Shown here piece after piece: positions 35,818 through 39,077 of a stretch of DNA of 64,000 nt; within the stretch, counting starts at the first letter, position 1; each line of letters opens with the position of its first letter. The stretch lies in the IMG/VR virus record IMGVR_UViG_3300025450_001231. One strand, given 5' to 3'. Both the position numbers and the translations under genes were made by a program. The stretch comes from a virus. Its lineage: Duplodnaviria; Caudoviricetes. The notes beneath the pieces were generated by a model. The model saw only the letters and a list, made by a program, of their open reading frames with translations. It was not told the DNA's origin and made no database searches.

Positions 35818-37359
35818 GTGAAAAATATGAGAATTACCGACATCATTACAGAAGATTTGGCAGTGGATGCAAGATATGCAACCAGAGCAGAGATGAATAT
35901 TCTTTCCCAAAAGCTATCTGCCCAATTACCAGAGTATAGATTTAGTGTTGAAAAGAAATCTACTAGTGAAGTAATTTATATTCGTATTTTTAACGCAGAC
36001 AAGCAAGCTATCGTTGATTACTTTAGAGCACAAGGTCTTGACCAATTGCCGTTAGAGCCTGAACAAGCAGGCATTAGCGCAAAGTATCGCAATAATATTT
36101 TAAGTTATCAAACCAGTAGTAGACACATTGAGCCTATTGCTCAAAATAAACAACACAAAGTACCACAAACAAAAACCAATGCACAAACTGTTATCTATAC
36201 ATTGGTTGTAGCCAGTTCTGGTAAAGAAGAAGAAACTGGTGTTGGTGTTAGCATTAAAGAATTTACTCCTACTAGTTTGGGACTAGCAGGCCGTAAGTAT
36301 ACAAAAGACACATTGATCCAAGCTGCTCAACAAGCAGTAGCTGAAAAAACCAAAACTCGCAAAGATCTACAACAGATTTTGTTGGGGCTGATTGATGTTG
36401 CAGCCAACGGTGGCAAAGGTACACTACCTCCAGCAGTTAATCAAAATTTAAGCGGTAGAGCACGCAATCAACTTAGCGTGGACTTTGGTGAAATACTTGC
36501 TCCTATACTGATTGCAGAAAATGATCAAGAAATTGAATTCCCTGCAGATGGAAACTTCCCATTGATTGACGTGATTGTCAACAAGGTTAATTATAGTGTC
36601 AAGAGCTTAACAGGTTCGGGTACTAGTTTTCGCAGTATCAGTGATTTAATGGATAACTTTGAAAAGACTGTTGAGAAAGATACTAAACAAGAAAAATTGT
36701 TTGCGTTATTCAAAGGCTACCATCCTAAATCAGGCGGCTCCAACAAAGACAAAATTCTTCGTGCAGCCCAATTGATTCAGGTTCCAGAACTTAAAAAACT
36801 GACATCGTCTTTGGGCAAAAAAATTAGCGGTGACATTAATTTTGAAAATCTTAAAGCCATTTTGGCAAAAGTTGTAGACCCAACTGACAAAAGTACAGAT
36901 GCATACACAAAGTTTTTGAATTGGGTTTACCCCAGTATGACTGCCGGCGGTTGGGGAAAACCAGTTGGGCTACCACAAGACGGCAATCGCTATATGGGAA
37001 ACAAGACCAAGACCAAAAGCAAAGACGAAAAAGGTTCAGATGAACCAATCGAAAAAACCGCAGGCTATCCCAGTTTCCGTGCTGATCCTCTAGAAGCTGC
37101 GGCCAACATAGTAACTTATATGTTGGGAGTTGCAACACTTAACGCAGTCACTCGTGGCCCAGATGCCGACGATTATGCTCATATGATGACCAACGTGGTC
37201 AACCAAAGTTCAGCGTCTTTGGGAAGATTGGACATAACAGACAGCGGCGGTTTGGTTGTTTCTACCAAGCCATTCAGTGAATTGAAGTTCAAATTCCAAT
37301 ATCACGCACCAAGTCATTTACCAGGAAATAATTTACCTGGCTTTATGATAGTGTATTGA
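35818..37359 (+). CDS. putative PD-(D/E)XK nuclease with capsid-targeting-like N-terminus
   Basis: FGEIL...PLIDVIVNKVNYSVK motif; MRITDIITED N-terminus; adjacent to a DNA MTase. Confidence 0.5.
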   Translation: MKNMRITDIITEDLAVDARYATRAEMNILSQKLSAQLPEYRFSVEKKSTSEVIYIRIFNADKQAIVDYFRAQGLDQLPLEPEQAGISAKYRNNILSYQTSSRHIEPIAQNKQHKVPQTKTNAQTVIYTLVVASSGKEEETGVGVSIKEFTPTSLGLAGRKYTKDTLIQAAQQAVAEKTKTRKDLQQILLGLIDVAANGGKGTLPPAVNQNLSGRARNQLSVDFGEILAPILIAENDQEIEFPADGNFPLIDVIVNKVNYSVKSLTGSGTSFRSISDLMDNFEKTVEKDTKQEKLFALFKGYHPKSGGSNKDKILRAAQLIQVPELKKLTSSLGKKISGDINFENLKAILAKVVDPTDKSTDAYTKFLNWVYPSMTAGGWGKPVGLPQDGNRYMGNKTKTKSKDEKGSDEPIEKTAGYPSFRADPLEAAANIVTYMLGVATLNAVTRGPDADDYAHMMTNVVNQSSASLGRLDITDSGGLVVSTKPFSELKFKFQYHAPSHLPGNNLPGFMIVY

Positions 37360-37384
37360 CATTTAATACAATCTCTGCTATAAT
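37356..37384 (+). promoter_or_regulatory. sigma70-type promoter, leaderless MTase transcript
   Basis: TTGACA-17-TATAAT; ATG at 37391. Confidence 0.85.
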
Positions 37385-37390
37385 ACTCAT

Positions 37391-38305
37391 ATGATTACAC
37401 GCATTAACGGTGATTGCATAGAAGTCGCCTATGAAATTCCAGATCTTAGTATTGACTTACTGTTAACAGATCCTCCCTACAATATCAGTGGTGGTGGAGC
37501 TGAGCCTGTTTGGATTGACAAAGCCACTGGCCTAAACAAAACTACAATACACAATCAAAACTTCAGCAAAGACTTTGCTGAAAATTGGGATGATGTTGAG
37601 CACGATGAATTTCTAAGTCAACTTGACTCTTGGAGTGAAATGTGGTTCTCAAAGTTGCGTAAAGGTGCTAGCTTTGCTGTATTCATCAGTGACCAATATG
37701 TCAGTTACTTGTGGAAAAGTATGGAGCGTGCAGGGTTTGAACCTAAACGTGTTTGGACTTGGAAAAAGCCTGCAGCAGTTCCATTCAATCGACAGGTAAA
37801 TCCGGTAAGTGCTTGTGAGTATATCCTGTGGGGAATCAAACCCGGAGGTAAGCGTACATTTAATGCAGATGCAGCTCCTGGCACTATTGTTGAGCGTTAT
37901 GCGGCTGCTGATAAAATCAGTAGCATTGTCTACAAGTTAGCAAAAGAAACAGACGCTGAAGCCAACTTGGAACGAATCTTTGCACAAGCATTGGCAGAAG
38001 CAAAAACAATGTTACGTGATCGTAAGCGAGATAAAGGTAATGTACAATGTGTAATTCCCAACACTATCACTTATAGTGGCGGATTGGGAAAGAATAAGAT
38101 TCATCCAACTGAAAAGCCAGTGGAATTATTAGAGTACTTTATTGAACTGCTAAGTAATGAAAACGACACGGTATTGGATACATTTGCGGGCAGTGGCAGC
38201 ACAGGTGTTGCTGCTGAACGTAGAAATAGAAATTGCATCTTAATTGAACGTGACAGAGATATGTTTTTTAAGATGAGTAAAAAGTTTAATGCGCTGGTAA
38301 CTTAA
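37391..38305 (+). CDS. beta-class N4-cytosine/N6-adenine DNA methyltransferase
   Basis: DLLLTDPPY near the N-terminus, HPTEKP, VLDTFAGSGSTG near the C-terminus. Confidence 0.9.
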   Translation: MITRINGDCIEVAYEIPDLSIDLLLTDPPYNISGGGAEPVWIDKATGLNKTTIHNQNFSKDFAENWDDVEHDEFLSQLDSWSEMWFSKLRKGASFAVFISDQYVSYLWKSMERAGFEPKRVWTWKKPAAVPFNRQVNPVSACEYILWGIKPGGKRTFNADAAPGTIVERYAAADKISSIVYKLAKETDAEANLERIFAQALAEAKTMLRDRKRDKGNVQCVIPNTITYSGGLGKNKIHPTEKPVELLEYFIELLSNENDTVLDTFAGSGSTGVAAERRNRNCILIERDRDMFFKMSKKFNALVT

Positions 38306-38325: not shown

Positions 38326-38397
38326 GCGACTTTAGCATAGCGGTAGTGCCGAGAACTCATAATTCTTACGGGACTGGTTCGAATCCAGTAGGTCGCA
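38326..38397 (+). tRNA. tRNA with CAT anticodon (Ile2 or elongator Met); 3-prime end CAA rather than CCA
   Basis: GCGACTT/AGGTCGC acceptor, GAGAA-CTCATAA-TTCTT, GGTTCGAATCC. Confidence 0.8.
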
Positions 38398-38438
38398 CAA
38401 ATAATCTTTTAATTCTTTCCACCATTTATCCAAAATCA

Positions 38439-38467
38439 TTGACAATCAAGACTAAATAAAATATAAT
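38439..38467 (+). promoter_or_regulatory. perfect sigma70 promoter of the attenuator leader
   Basis: TTGACA-17-TATAAT. Confidence 0.9.
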
Positions 38468-38474
38468 AGATACT

Positions 38475-38618
38475 ATGATGACTAACACTTTTAATCATTT
38501 GTGCAGACAAAACCAACAACCCAAACTAAGTCTGGGTGGCGTAGTAGCCTATTGGTCTATGACATCTGCAACAGAGATTAATAGTTCAGATCGTTTACCA
38601 AGCAGGGGTTTAAGTTAA
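38475..38618 (+). CDS. putative leaderless leader peptide (47 aa, all 20 amino acids)
   Basis: MMTNTFNHLCRQNQQPKLSLGGVVAYWSMTSATEINSSDRLPSRGLS; starts at the predicted +1 and stops inside the antiterminator arm. Confidence 0.65.
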   Translation: MMTNTFNHLCRQNQQPKLSLGGVVAYWSMTSATEINSSDRLPSRGLS

Positions 38619-38651
38619 CATATTCTATTAAAGTATTTTAACTTAAACCCC
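38605..38651 (+). promoter_or_regulatory. antiterminator hairpin
   Basis: GGGGTTTAAGTTAA (38605-18) is the perfect reverse complement of TTAACTTAAACCCC (38638-51). Confidence 0.7.
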
Positions 38652-38681
38652 AGGACTAAAAACCCTGGGGTTTTTGTTTTT
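38645..38681 (+). terminator. intrinsic (attenuator) terminator
   Basis: AAACCCCAGG/CCTGGGGTTT 10-bp stem plus TTGTTTTT tail; shares AAACCCC with the antiterminator. Confidence 0.85.
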
Positions 38682-38696
38682 GTAAAGGAGAAAACT

Positions 38697-38849
38697 GTGA
38701 ACAAAAATTTAATTAGACAACAAAAGTTTTTGCAAGAGCATACTTTGACTCCTGAAAAGAGAGCAAAGTTAATTGAAGAAAAGCTCAAACGAGCAGAAGC
38801 TTTATTAAAAGAGATTATGGAAAAAGATAAGAAATTATCAAAAGATTAA
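38697..38849 (+). CDS. small charged helical protein (50 aa)
   Basis: AAGGAG RBS, GTG start; MNKNLIRQQKFLQEHTLTPEKRAKLIEEKLKRAEALLKEIMEKDKKLSKD. Confidence 0.6.
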   Translation: MNKNLIRQQKFLQEHTLTPEKRAKLIEEKLKRAEALLKEIMEKDKKLSKD

Positions 38850-38859
38850 TCAAAGTGAA

Positions 38860-39042
38860 AAAAAGGAAACGAGGTCCTTAGCACACTATAAATAGCTAGA
38901 ACGGGCGGAGACAGGGATGGCTTATCTTCTTGTAGATAAAAAAATCTGTCATAGTAAAGTTCATTAGATGAATATGTAACGTGAAGACGTTGGCTCCCAT
39001 TGACCGGGACGTTCGAAACAAAATACTAGTGAACTTTACTAT
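38860..39042 (+). ncRNA. candidate structured ncRNA(s)
   Basis: No ORF; nested stems GACAG/CTGTC and TTATCT/AGATAA, and a 17-bp stem 38951-67 with 39026-42 enclosing hairpins and GTTCGAAAC. Confidence 0.4.
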
Positions 39043-39048
39043 AAACTC

Positions 39049-39077
39049 TTGACACATTCAATTTTTGTTGTTATAAT
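39049..39077 (+). promoter_or_regulatory. sigma70-type promoter
   Basis: TTGACA-17-TATAAT. Confidence 0.85.

What the first reader, a model, noticed from the sequence alone, without database searches (positions are those of the whole stretch)
38439..38690. Candidate all-codon translation-sensing attenuator at the head of the tRNA/rpoZ locus
Seen: perfect TTGACA-17-TATAAT promoter; ATG at the predicted +1 (leaderless); a 47-codon ORF containing all 20 amino acids and 33 distinct codons (4 Leu, 4 Ser, and 3 different codons for its 3 Arg). Its TAA (38616-18) lies in the 5-prime arm of a perfect 14-bp hairpin that shares AAACCCC with a 10-bp intrinsic terminator, so the two structures are mutually exclusive. 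Established: in trp/his-type attenuators a ribosome reaching the end of the leader blocks the antiterminator and transcription terminates, while stalling allows read-through. Inference: instead of repeating one codon, this leader samples nearly every isoacceptor, so shortage or cleavage of any tRNA would switch on downstream genes (50-aa ORF, ncRNA, rpoZ, tRNAs, ppiC). Caveat: internal promoters at 39049, 40564 and 42875 and a possible terminator at 40531 mean only part of the array may be gated.
Basis: partly seen in the sequence, partly recalled or inferred. Interest (0 to 1): 0.93.

Follow-up and report, generated by a model that had tools for sequence, protein, structure and literature searches.

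The report
Twenty-amino-acid leader switch before phage tRNAs
A lake-water giant phage, like more than 100 uncultured relatives, carries a roughly 45-codon test gene kept by selection to contain every amino acid and wired to an on/off transcription stop ahead of its tRNA genes, so it probably switches on a downstream RNA/tRNA module whenever ribosomes cannot decode any one codon type.

Summary
That covers the consensus promoter, an ATG 7 nt after the -10, and a 47-codon ORF with all 20 amino acids and 33 distinct codons. The TAA closes the 5' arm of a perfect 14-bp hairpin, and the hairpin's 3' arm is the 5' arm of an intrinsic terminator.

The element is one member of a large family in uncultured phage contigs. 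Among 125 unique leader peptides (mean about 45 aa), 91 hold all 20 amino acids, against 1.4-2.4% in controls. Cys, Trp, His and Tyr are each present exactly once in about 80-95% of the first 73 peptides. The single Cys sits at 26 different positions. The other five reading frames show no such enrichment.

The antiterminator covaries, and the stop codon always lies 23-34 nt before the terminator. A small ORF, a conserved unknown ncRNA and a tRNA array follow on the same strand.

The best reading is a ribosome-operated attenuator that senses any aminoacyl-tRNA shortage. It works like the mycobacterial whiB7 uORF, but here the full amino-acid set is itself the conserved trait. No experiment exists yet.

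This scan has already noted the same design in other lake-phage genomes (e1-5363962, e1-5370042).

The parts
38439..38467 (+). Consensus sigma-70 promoter (TTGACA, 17 nt, TATAAT)
   Evidence: A promoter at the same distance is present in relatives.
38475..38618 (+). Leader ORF: 47 codons plus TAA, all 20 amino acids, effectively leaderless (ATG 7 and 10 nt after the -10)
   Evidence: It belongs to a family of 125 unique peptides, 91 of them with all 20 amino acids. The property is specific to this reading frame.
38477..38595 (+). Structured 5' domain inside the coding region. It is a long irregular hairpin that places the invariant Trp codon in a helix.
   Evidence: window z -3.2; family mean z -2.67. 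One search shows the recurrent CCAA..UUGG hairpin and its variants. The role of this domain is unknown.
38605..38651 (+). Antiterminator hairpin: 14 bp perfect plus an inner 5 bp, -20.2 kcal/mol. The stop codon 38616-38618 ends its 5' arm.
   Evidence: Every relative has an equivalent hairpin. Covariation is shown.
38645..38681 (+). Intrinsic terminator: 10-bp stem 38645-38654/38664-38673 with a 9-nt loop, then TTTTTGTTTTT. Its 5' arm overlaps the 3' arm of the antiterminator.
   Evidence: The same stem-loop with its conserved loop occurs in 120+ viral contigs and also after ordinary genes.
38685..38849 (+). First gene under the switch: Shine-Dalgarno AAGGAG (38685-38690) and a 50-aa ORF (GTG 38697 to stop 38849). 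The family motif is LTxEQxxKLIxxKxxRA.
   Evidence: alignment A3. There is no Pfam or PHROG family and no informative atlas hit.
38854..39045 (+). Conserved structured ncRNA of unknown function: hairpin with loop AACGAGG, a pseudoknot-forming loop CACUAUAAA, AACGGGCGG, and a long closing stem
   Evidence: nhmmer finds it behind 72 of 91 leader loci. Sequences are compared. No Rfam match.
39049..39077 (+). Second consensus promoter, between the ncRNA and the rpoZ/tRNA genes
   Evidence: Equivalent promoters are seen in L001, L006 and L120-type loci.
39101..39316 (+). RNA polymerase omega-like gene (71 aa)
   Evidence: Pfam RNA_pol_Rpb6, E 2.6e-13. It lies behind the leader only in close relatives such as L006.
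39325..43872 (+). tRNA array (22 tRNA genes on the + strand, interspersed with ppiC, DUF7448, HNH and other ORFs). A further tRNA-Met lies upstream at 38326-38398.
   Evidence: Same-strand tRNA arrays follow the leader in nearly all related loci.

Best explanation
This is a ribosome-operated transcription attenuator whose leader peptide is a 'pan-amino-acid' test frame.

Proposed sequence of events:
1. Host RNA polymerase starts at the consensus promoter, and a ribosome loads at once on the 5'-terminal AUG. In half of the relatives it loads at a short 5' UTR instead.
2. The ribosome follows the polymerase through about 45 codons that include every amino acid, the rare ones usually once.
3. If the ribosome gets through, it enters the last ~11 codons and the stop codon, which form the 5' strand and apex of the antiterminator hairpin. 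That strand is then held in the ribosome.
4. The shared segment (AAACCCC in the window, GGACCCC in most relatives) is left free to pair with the terminator's 3' arm. Transcription ends at the T-run, giving a ~200-nt RNA.
5. If any one aminoacyl-tRNA is scarce, or if translation fails altogether, the ribosome lags or stalls upstream. The antiterminator is made first and folds, the terminator cannot form, and polymerase reads on into the ~50-aa ORF, the conserved ncRNA and the tRNA array.

Shown here: the anatomy, its conservation and covariation, the frame-specific selection for all 20 amino acids, and the synteny.

Inferred: that the ORF is translated, that termination and read-through respond as described, and what the response module does.
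For: **Anatomy in the window.** It is exactly as described.

**Family.**
- 96 of 124 terminator copies are preceded by one small-ORF family.
- An independent sample anchored only on the downstream ncRNA gave 52 loci with tRNAs. Of these, 46 have a short ORF plus terminator upstream, many with other terminator sequences and with peptides the HMM does not recognise.

**Selection for the amino-acid set.**
- 60 of 73 unique peptides have all 20 amino acids, rising to 91 of 125 with the second sample. Controls give 2.4% (protein windows), 2.0% (random draws at the family's own composition) and 1.4% (random small ORFs).
- At 60% identity the peptides form 45 clusters, and 24 of these are mostly all-20.
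- Exactly one Cys is present in 58/73, one Trp in 70/73, one His in 59/73 and one Tyr in 58/73.
- The single Cys occupies 26 different offsets from the Trp.
- Close relatives show reciprocal swaps: Cys and Tyr between L054 and L127, His and Phe between L076 and L119.
- The other five frames of the same DNA give 16.3-17.4 amino-acid types, 0-2 of 73 with all 20, and 1.3-4.5 stop codons each.
- The peptide sequence itself is weakly constrained: pN/pS 0.63, against 0.82-0.91 off-frame.

**The switch.**
- Every member has an antiterminator (mean -23.5 kcal/mol, 18.5 bp) whose 3' outer arm is the terminator's 5' arm (terminator mean -14.9 kcal/mol).
- Cognate hairpin halves fold at -23.5 kcal/mol against -16.3 for swapped halves. 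Shuffling the interior gives z -3.8.
- On a covariance-model alignment of 76 copies, 86.5% of cells pair and 14 of 21 pairs show compensatory change. There are 165 double changes against 60.5 +/- 6.5 in shuffles (0/500). The covariation score is 0.311, against <=0.083 for slid partners.
- The stop codon lies 23-34 nt before the terminator in all members.
- 49 of 60 all-20 peptides complete the set before the 5' arm begins.
- In a masked-footprint fold, a ribosome 1-7 codons from the stop gives the terminator in 95-100% of leaders. A ribosome 13 or more codons upstream gives the terminator in only ~19-34%.

**Cargo.** The small ORF, the ncRNA (72/91 loci) and same-strand tRNA arrays follow.

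**Precedent.** The whiB7 uORF attenuator senses starvation only for amino acids that its uORF encodes (PMC10274678).
Against: - There is no experimental or expression evidence. The metatranscriptome contigs that touch the region cover only tRNAs and the terminator of relatives, and may be DNA carry-over.
- Only the outer ~7-10 bp of the antiterminator exclude the terminator. At equilibrium the full leader has the terminator in 19 of 73 members, and the antiterminator in 45, even without a ribosome. The switch would therefore have to be kinetic.
- A consensus promoter usually lies between the ncRNA and the tRNA genes. The tRNA array is thus not dependent on read-through, and the certain cargo is only the small ORF and the ncRNA, both of unknown function.
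- Thirteen of the first 73 peptides lack 1-3 amino acids.
- The often single Glu sits within ~4 codons of the 5' arm, probably outside the zone where a stall would be sensed.
- The coding region is itself a conserved structure with an invariant Trp codon and an N-D-R block. The simple model does not explain this.
- Codon or isoacceptor coverage is only slightly above expectation.
- A later check of a related 'phage tRNA attenuator' note in this scan put its bold reading at 30/100.
Confidence: 0.68

Rival explanations
1. The attenuator is real, but it measures overall translation capacity or transcription-translation coupling: ribosome availability, leaderless initiation, ribosome-targeting toxins or antibiotics. 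It would not be sensing individual aminoacyl-tRNAs. On this view the broad composition only makes the transit time representative of average decoding.
For: The same anatomy applies. Without any ribosome the antiterminator is the predicted state in most members (45/73), so any block of translation would give read-through. whiB7-type uORFs also respond to many ribosome inhibitors.
Against: A speed gauge does not need each rare amino acid exactly once. Nor would it need a lost residue to be regained elsewhere. The under-dispersion of Cys, Trp, His and Tyr points to selection on the presence of every type.
Confidence: 0.15
2. The ORF encodes a functional micro-protein, or the ~200-nt RNA is a stable dual-function sRNA. 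It would have its own promoter and terminator, and the upstream hairpin would serve RNA stability or processing rather than regulation.
For: Trp and the N-D-R-x-P block are conserved. The coding region is significantly structured (mean z -2.67). The promoter and terminator are both strong.
Against: - pN/pS is 0.63, so the peptide is weakly constrained.
- No protein family or atlas relative was found.
- A stand-alone gene has no reason to keep a covarying hairpin that competes with its own terminator and holds its stop codon at a fixed place.
- A functional fold does not explain rare residues that move position while the full set of 20 is kept, or the strict linkage to tRNA arrays.
Confidence: 0.1
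3. A nascent-chain arrest peptide. The conserved Trp ... Asp-Arg-x-Pro residues would stall the ribosome in response to a small molecule or factor, as in TnaC or SecM, and the stall position would set the terminator/antiterminator choice.
For: The Trp is invariant and the D-R-x-P block lies 4-6 codons before the 5' arm. Synonymous variation occurs inside the block (CGT/CGC, CCA/CCT/CCG).
Against: The motif is absent from the diverged leaders that still keep all 20 amino acids. The Trp codon and the N-D-R codons lie in conserved RNA helices, which can account for their conservation. Spacing to the stop codon varies. The resemblance to TnaC or SecM is from memory only and was not tested.
Confidence: 0.05

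Closest known systems
whiB7 (wblC) uORF transcription attenuator of mycobacteria/actinobacteria (PMC10274678, read)
   Same: A short uORF is followed by mutually exclusive antiterminator and rho-independent terminator structures. Efficient uORF translation gives termination, and stalling gives read-through. It acts as a general translation-stress sensor, and it senses starvation only for amino acids encoded in the uORF (shown by removing Trp or His codons). The M. smegmatis uORF has 19 of the 20 amino acids.
   Different: - whiB7 uORFs are Ala-rich (25-40%) and their amino-acid set is not conserved; M. tuberculosis lacks several.
- In the phage family the complete set is the conserved trait, with rare residues held at one copy (Ala 5.9%).
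- The phage element has no sequence relation to whiB7.
- Its cargo is a small ORF, an ncRNA and tRNA genes, not a transcription factor.
- Half of the phage leaders are leaderless.
Leader-peptide attenuators of enterobacterial amino-acid operons (trpL, hisL, leuL, thrL, pheL, ilvL; established knowledge)
   Same: There is a promoter-proximal leader ORF. Ribosome position decides between an antiterminator and an intrinsic terminator. A ribosome reaching the end of the leader favours termination. The leader RNA is heavily structured.
   Different: Those leaders repeat the codons of one to three cognate amino acids and control biosynthetic genes. They also have a 1:2 anti-antiterminator, so that no translation gives termination. 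Here no codon is repeated for sensing, all 20 amino acids are sampled, no anti-antiterminator was found (no translation predicts read-through), and the element lies in a virus in front of tRNA genes.
Leader-peptide attenuators in front of tRNA blocks of other giant phages, noted earlier in this scan (e1-3264018, e1-5326844, e1-5368892 and others; AI notes)
   Same: These are phage elements with a short translated frame plus a switchable terminator ahead of tRNA genes. Two notes (e1-5363962, e1-5370042) describe the same pan-amino-acid design in lake-water giant phages.
   Different: In most of those notes each leader spells only the amino acids of the tRNA block behind it. Here a single leader holds all 20, including Val, His and Phe, for which ARAGORN finds no tRNA in this window. 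None of these notes is published or experimentally tested.
T-box riboswitches (established knowledge)
   Same: The functional theme is shared: a cis-acting RNA switch between terminator and antiterminator that reports tRNA charging.
   Different: A T-box binds one specific uncharged tRNA directly and needs no translation. No T-box or other Rfam family matches here.

Membership tests
Ribosome-mediated (leader-peptide) transcription attenuator | Short ORF directly behind a promoter and upstream of the regulated genes | tested here: met
   The ORF 38475-38618 begins 7 nt after the -10. The same holds in 34 of 73 unique relatives, and 34 others have a 32-65 nt 5' UTR.
Ribosome-mediated (leader-peptide) transcription attenuator | Intrinsic terminator between the leader ORF and the downstream genes | tested here: met
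   A 10-bp GC-rich stem plus T-run at 38645-38681. It is conserved in all members.
Ribosome-mediated (leader-peptide) transcription attenuator | Alternative antiterminator structure mutually exclusive with the terminator, supported by covariation | tested here: met
   The segment AAACCCC/GGACCCC is shared by both structures. Covariation score 0.311 against 0.157 in shuffles and <=0.083 for slid partners; 14 of 21 pairs show compensatory change. The swap test gives -23.5 against -16.3 kcal/mol.
Ribosome-mediated (leader-peptide) transcription attenuator | The end of the leader ORF overlaps the antiterminator, so that ribosome position selects the structure | tested here: met
   The stop codon lies in the 5' arm or apex of the antiterminator in all members, 23-34 nt before the terminator. 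The masked-footprint folds switch state ~11-12 codons before the stop.
Ribosome-mediated (leader-peptide) transcription attenuator | Regulatory codons: enrichment of the sensed amino acid(s) in the leader | tested here: inconclusive
   No amino acid is repeated as in trpL or hisL. Instead all 20 are present far above chance and in this frame only. This is a different form of the feature.
Ribosome-mediated (leader-peptide) transcription attenuator | Read-through rises when translation of the leader stalls (functional proof) | not testable with these tools
   Only metagenomic DNA and uninformative RNA contigs are available.
whiB7-type uORF attenuator | Ala-rich uORF upstream of a WhiB-family regulator in Actinobacteria | tested here: not met
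   Ala makes up 5.9% of the family's composition. The element is in a phage and the downstream genes are a small ORF, an ncRNA and tRNAs. It works like whiB7 but is not a member.
T-box riboswitch / any Rfam family | Match to the family covariance model | tested here: not met
   No Rfam hit on 38439-39045 at E<=1 apart from a spurious miRNA-like palindrome match. None in seven related loci.

The most novel reading that the evidence does not exclude
A family of uncultured giant phages has evolved a single ~45-codon reading frame that samples all 20 aminoacyl-tRNA species, mostly one codon each. It uses this frame as a tRNA-pool alarm. Depletion or cleavage of any tRNA would flip an RNA switch that turns on a dedicated rescue module: a small protein, an ornate unknown ncRNA and the phage's own tRNA array. 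The trigger could be host anticodon nucleases, starvation, or the phage's own host shut-off. The element would thus be a viral tRNA homeostat and counter-defence sensor.
Probability: 0.5. Interest if true: 0.95.

Novelty: new variant of a known kind. Interest (0 to 1): 0.88.

Why it matters
Leader-peptide attenuation has been known for fifty years as a sensor of one or a few amino acids. Here the evidence shows selection on the completeness of the amino-acid set, across more than 100 diverged viral leaders, with rare residues held at one copy and free to move.

If the mechanism holds, three things follow.
- Phages would be shown to monitor the whole translational supply of the cell with one tiny gene.
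- Phage tRNA arrays, whose regulation is essentially unknown, would be linked to a concrete control logic.
- The small protein and the ncRNA would be marked as a translation-stress response worth solving.

It would also provide a compact, portable 'any-tRNA' biosensor. The prediction can be tested directly with a cell-free transcription-translation assay on a 260-bp fragment.

Tried and rejected
**Alternative identities for the element**
- Known RNA family or hidden tRNA/tmRNA: ARAGORN and Rfam find nothing in 38439-39045, nor in seven homologous loci.
- Known protein family for the leader peptide or the 50-aa ORF: there are no credible Pfam or PHROG hits. The atlas gave only weak unnamed clusters. 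The 5.8-billion-protein search returned only the window's own peptide cluster.
- By-product of base composition or RNA structure: rejected, because the other five frames have 16.3-17.4 amino-acid types and 0-2 of 73 with all 20.
- Shared ancestry alone: unlikely, given the moving single Cys/His/Tyr/Phe, the reciprocal swaps, and all-20 leaders among HMM-negative diverged peptides. A tree-based simulation was not run.

**Relatives and hosts**
- Cultured relatives: no isolate in the phage collection carries the element.
- The nearest cultured sheath relative tested, PA5oct, has neither the ncRNA motif nor the antiterminator model.
- The genome-contig scan with the ncRNA pattern returned 120 hits. 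None contained the real ncRNA or the leader, so they are chance matches.

**Expression**
- Four RNA-labelled runs gave only contigs on tRNAs and on the terminators of relatives. No starts or ends could be read.

**Technical dead ends**
- MAFFT plus RNAalifold recovered only the outer stem, because the interior stems were misaligned. This was solved with a covariance model, which does not capture the window's own single-stem variant.
Full report
**1. What is in the window.**

- Promoter: TTGACA (38439-38444), a 17-nt spacer, TATAAT (38462-38467).
- Start: ATG seven bases later (38475), with a second in-frame ATG at 38478.
- ORF: 47 sense codons ending in TAA (38616-38618). It encodes all 20 amino acids with 33 distinct codons.
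- Antiterminator candidate: the TAA closes the 5' arm of a perfect 14-bp hairpin (38605-38651, -20.2 kcal/mol).
- Terminator: the hairpin's 3' arm shares AAACCCC with the 5' arm of a 10-bp terminator stem (38645-38673, -16.0 kcal/mol), followed by TTTTTGTTTTT.

ARAGORN, Rfam, Pfam and PHROGs recognise nothing in 38439-39045.

The window is a myovirus-type giant phage: it has a 1085-aa tail sheath, 45-48% identical to PA5oct-like and Phosso jumbo phages. Near-identical DNA is held in freshwater and lake metagenomes. No whole genome is held for the window.

**2. It is one member of a large family.**

Neighbouring genes led to three related contigs: L001, L004 and L006. Each carries the same unit of promoter, small ORF, hairpin and terminator.

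The terminator stem-loop has a conserved loop, so I scanned the viral contigs for it. Of 124 copies found, 96 are preceded by the same small-ORF family. The rest end ordinary genes, so the terminator type is general to this phage clade.

I then drew a second sample that depends on neither the terminator nor the peptide, anchored on a motif of the downstream ncRNA. It gave 52 loci with at least two tRNAs behind them. In 46 of these, a generic search finds a short ORF ending just before an intrinsic terminator. Many of these have different terminator sequences, and many have peptides that the family HMM cannot recognise.

No isolate in the phage collection carries the element, and neither does PA5oct. 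Cellular genome hits to the motif were chance matches.

**3. The full set of 20 amino acids is the conserved trait.**

The first sample has 73 unique peptides with a mean length of 45.5 aa. Sixty of them contain all 20 amino acids and 65 contain at least 19. Adding the second sample gives 91 of 125.

Controls from the same loci:
- 2.4% of 45-aa windows of real proteins have all 20.
- 2.0% of random draws at the family's own composition have all 20.
- 1.4% of 2,215 random small ORFs have all 20, with a mean of 16.1 types.

Shared ancestry cannot easily explain this.
- At 60% identity there are 45 clusters, 24 of which are mostly all-20.
- Fourteen of 28 HMM-negative leaders still have all 20.
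- Copy numbers are strongly under-dispersed: exactly one Cys in 58/73, one Trp in 70/73, one His in 59/73 and one Tyr in 58/73. A Poisson model with the same means predicts ~23-27 peptides lacking each residue.
- The single Cys occupies 26 different offsets from the Trp. His, Tyr and Phe each occupy 21-22 offsets.
- Close relatives show reciprocal swaps: Tyr22/Cys36 in L054 becomes Cys22/Tyr36 in L127, and His7/Phe10 in L076 becomes Phe7/His10 in L119.

The property belongs to the reading frame, not to the DNA. The other five frames give 16.3-17.4 types, 0-2 of 73 with all 20, and 1.3-4.5 stops each.

The peptide sequence itself is only weakly constrained, with pN/pS 0.63 against 0.82-0.91 off-frame. 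That profile suits a test frame more than a folded protein.

Codon diversity is only modestly raised: 34.6 versus 32.4 distinct codons. Both Arg codon families are used in 56 versus 33.6 expected leaders. T-ending codons are preferred for Asp, His, Tyr, Phe and Asn. The trait is therefore 'all amino acids' rather than 'all codons'.

**4. The switch is conserved and covaries.**

Every member folds a hairpin that begins inside the last 4-11 codons and carries the stop codon on its 5' strand or at its apex. It ends with the bases that form the 5' arm of the terminator.

Most relatives have a three-tier hairpin. The outer stem is GGGGUCC/GGACCCC, and the middle and inner stems vary. The window and about a dozen others have one continuous 13-14-bp stem whose sequence differs between members (for example GGGGUUUAAGUUAA here and GGGUCUUAAUUAA in L004).

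Measurements:
- Mean stability is -23.5 kcal/mol (18.5 bp), against -14.9 for the terminator.
- Pairing each 5' half with a foreign 3' half drops the energy to -16.3.
- Shuffling the interior gives z -3.8.
- A covariance model built on 28 copies and realigned on 76 gave 86.5% paired cells. Compensatory change appears in 14 of 21 pairs. There are 165 double changes against 60.5 +/- 6.5 in shuffles (0 of 500 reach it). The covariation score is 0.311, against at most 0.083 when partners are slid.
- The distance from the stop codon to the terminator is 23-34 nt in every member.

I also folded each leader with a 27-nt ribosome footprint masked at successive A-site positions. With the ribosome 1-7 codons from the stop, the terminator is predicted in 95-100% of leaders. 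With the ribosome 13 or more codons upstream, it is predicted in only ~19-34%. Forty-nine of the 60 all-20 peptides complete their set before the 5' arm begins. In the window the last new type, Asp, lies 16 nt before the arm.

**5. What lies behind it.**

On the same strand, almost every locus continues in the same order.
- A ~50-60-aa ORF with a good Shine-Dalgarno sequence (window 38685-38849; motif LTxEQxxKLIxxKxxRA; no known family). It is absent in about one locus in seven.
- A conserved structured ncRNA (window ~38854-39045; present in 72 of 91 loci; no Rfam match).
- A tRNA array.

rpoZ and ppiC follow only in close relatives.

A consensus promoter usually separates the ncRNA from the tRNAs (39049 in the window). 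The certain cargo of the switch is therefore the small ORF and the ncRNA. Read-through adds to tRNA transcription but is not required for it.

The leader is not always the first element of the tRNA region. A tRNA-Met lies just upstream in the window.

**6. Mechanism proposed, and its weak points.**

The most economical reading is ribosome-mediated attenuation, with termination as the 'all is well' state. A ribosome that decodes all 20 kinds of codon in step with RNA polymerase occupies the antiterminator's 5' strand, so the terminator forms. If the ribosome stalls earlier, or never loads, the antiterminator forms and transcription continues.

Weak points:
- There are no experimental data.
- Only the outer stem competes with the terminator, so at equilibrium 19 of 73 leaders show the terminator without any ribosome. 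The decision must be kinetic.
- The coding region is itself structured (mean z -2.67). One helix contains the invariant Trp codon, and another pairs codons ~4-8 with the N-D-R codons. This may be a pause or timing element. It probably explains the apparent 'peptide motif', but its role is open.
- Glu often lies too close to the arm to be sensed.
- Thirteen of the first 73 leaders lack 1-3 amino acids.

**7. Comparison with known systems.**

The nearest described system is the whiB7 uORF attenuator. It has the same logic and the same dependence of sensing on which amino acids the uORF encodes. The M. smegmatis uORF has 19 of the 20 amino acids (PMC10274678). However, whiB7 uORFs are Ala-rich, their amino-acid set is not conserved, and they control a transcription factor in Actinobacteria.

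Classical trp/his-type leaders repeat one to three amino acids and terminate when untranslated.

Four literature searches found no description of such a leader in phages or before tRNA genes.

Within this scan the same design has been noted in other lake-phage genomes (e1-5363962, e1-5370042). Leaders matched to their tRNA block have been noted in other giant phages. These are unchecked AI notes and do not count as independent support.

**8. Verdict.**

The novelty is a new variant of leader-peptide attenuation: a pan-amino-acid sensor, viral, and placed ahead of tRNA genes. Interest is high because the central claim, selection for completeness of the amino-acid set, is already shown by sequence statistics. 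The mechanism can be tested on a 260-bp fragment.

Noticed in passing
window 38854-39045; also L006:3679-3960, L001:9119-9355: Conserved ornate ncRNA between the attenuator and the tRNA array. Its features:
- a hairpin with conserved loop AACGAGG;
- a second hairpin whose loop CACU pairs with a 5' AGUG, a pseudoknot that covaries (AUGUG/CACAU in L054, AAUG/CAUU in L060);
- invariant AAACGGGCGG and GGAUG;
- a long closing stem.

It is present behind 72 of 91 leaders and has no Rfam match. Its function is unknown.
   Followed up: partly
window 38685-38849: A small-protein family of 46-62 aa with the motif LTxEQxxKLIxxKxxRA and a strong Shine-Dalgarno sequence. It is the first gene after the terminator in most related loci. 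It has no Pfam family and is probably helical. It would be the first product made on read-through.
   Followed up: partly
L047, L049, L050, L052, L064 (terminator hits after ordinary genes): The terminator stem-loop CCWGG-AYUAAAMAC-CCWGG, with its nearly invariant loop, also ends unrelated protein genes in many contigs. It is therefore a clade-wide terminator type. The conserved loop is unusual for a simple intrinsic terminator.
   Followed up: no
window 38477-38595 and homologous leader coding regions: The leader's coding region forms a conserved long hairpin (family mean z -2.67). The invariant Trp codon lies in a CCAA..UUGG helix, which covaries to CCAG/CUGG and CCACA/UGUGG. The N-D-R codons pair with codons 4-8. 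This could be a pause or timing element.
   Followed up: partly
window 42168-42359: Rfam group I intron hit (58.9 bits, above the gathering score) inside the tRNA array, between tRNA-Leu(UAG) and tRNA-Arg(UCU).
   Followed up: no
window 39101-39316: Phage-encoded RNA polymerase omega-like protein (Pfam RNA_pol_Rpb6, E 2.6e-13). Homologs occur in 33 viral contigs, and only the closest (L006, 77% identity) shares the leader context.
   Followed up: partly
window 37356-38305: N6/N4 DNA methyltransferase (PF01555, E 2.5e-37) with its own perfect consensus promoter at 37356-37384. It ends 20 nt before tRNA-Met (38326-38398).
   Followed up: no
window 43270-43731: HNH endonuclease-like ORF (153 aa) embedded in the tRNA array between tRNA-Gly and tRNA-Trp.
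   Followed up: no
L006:7064-7131: Weak Y RNA-like (YrlA) Rfam match (33.4 bits, below the gathering score of 69) within the tRNA array of a related giant phage.
   Followed up: no
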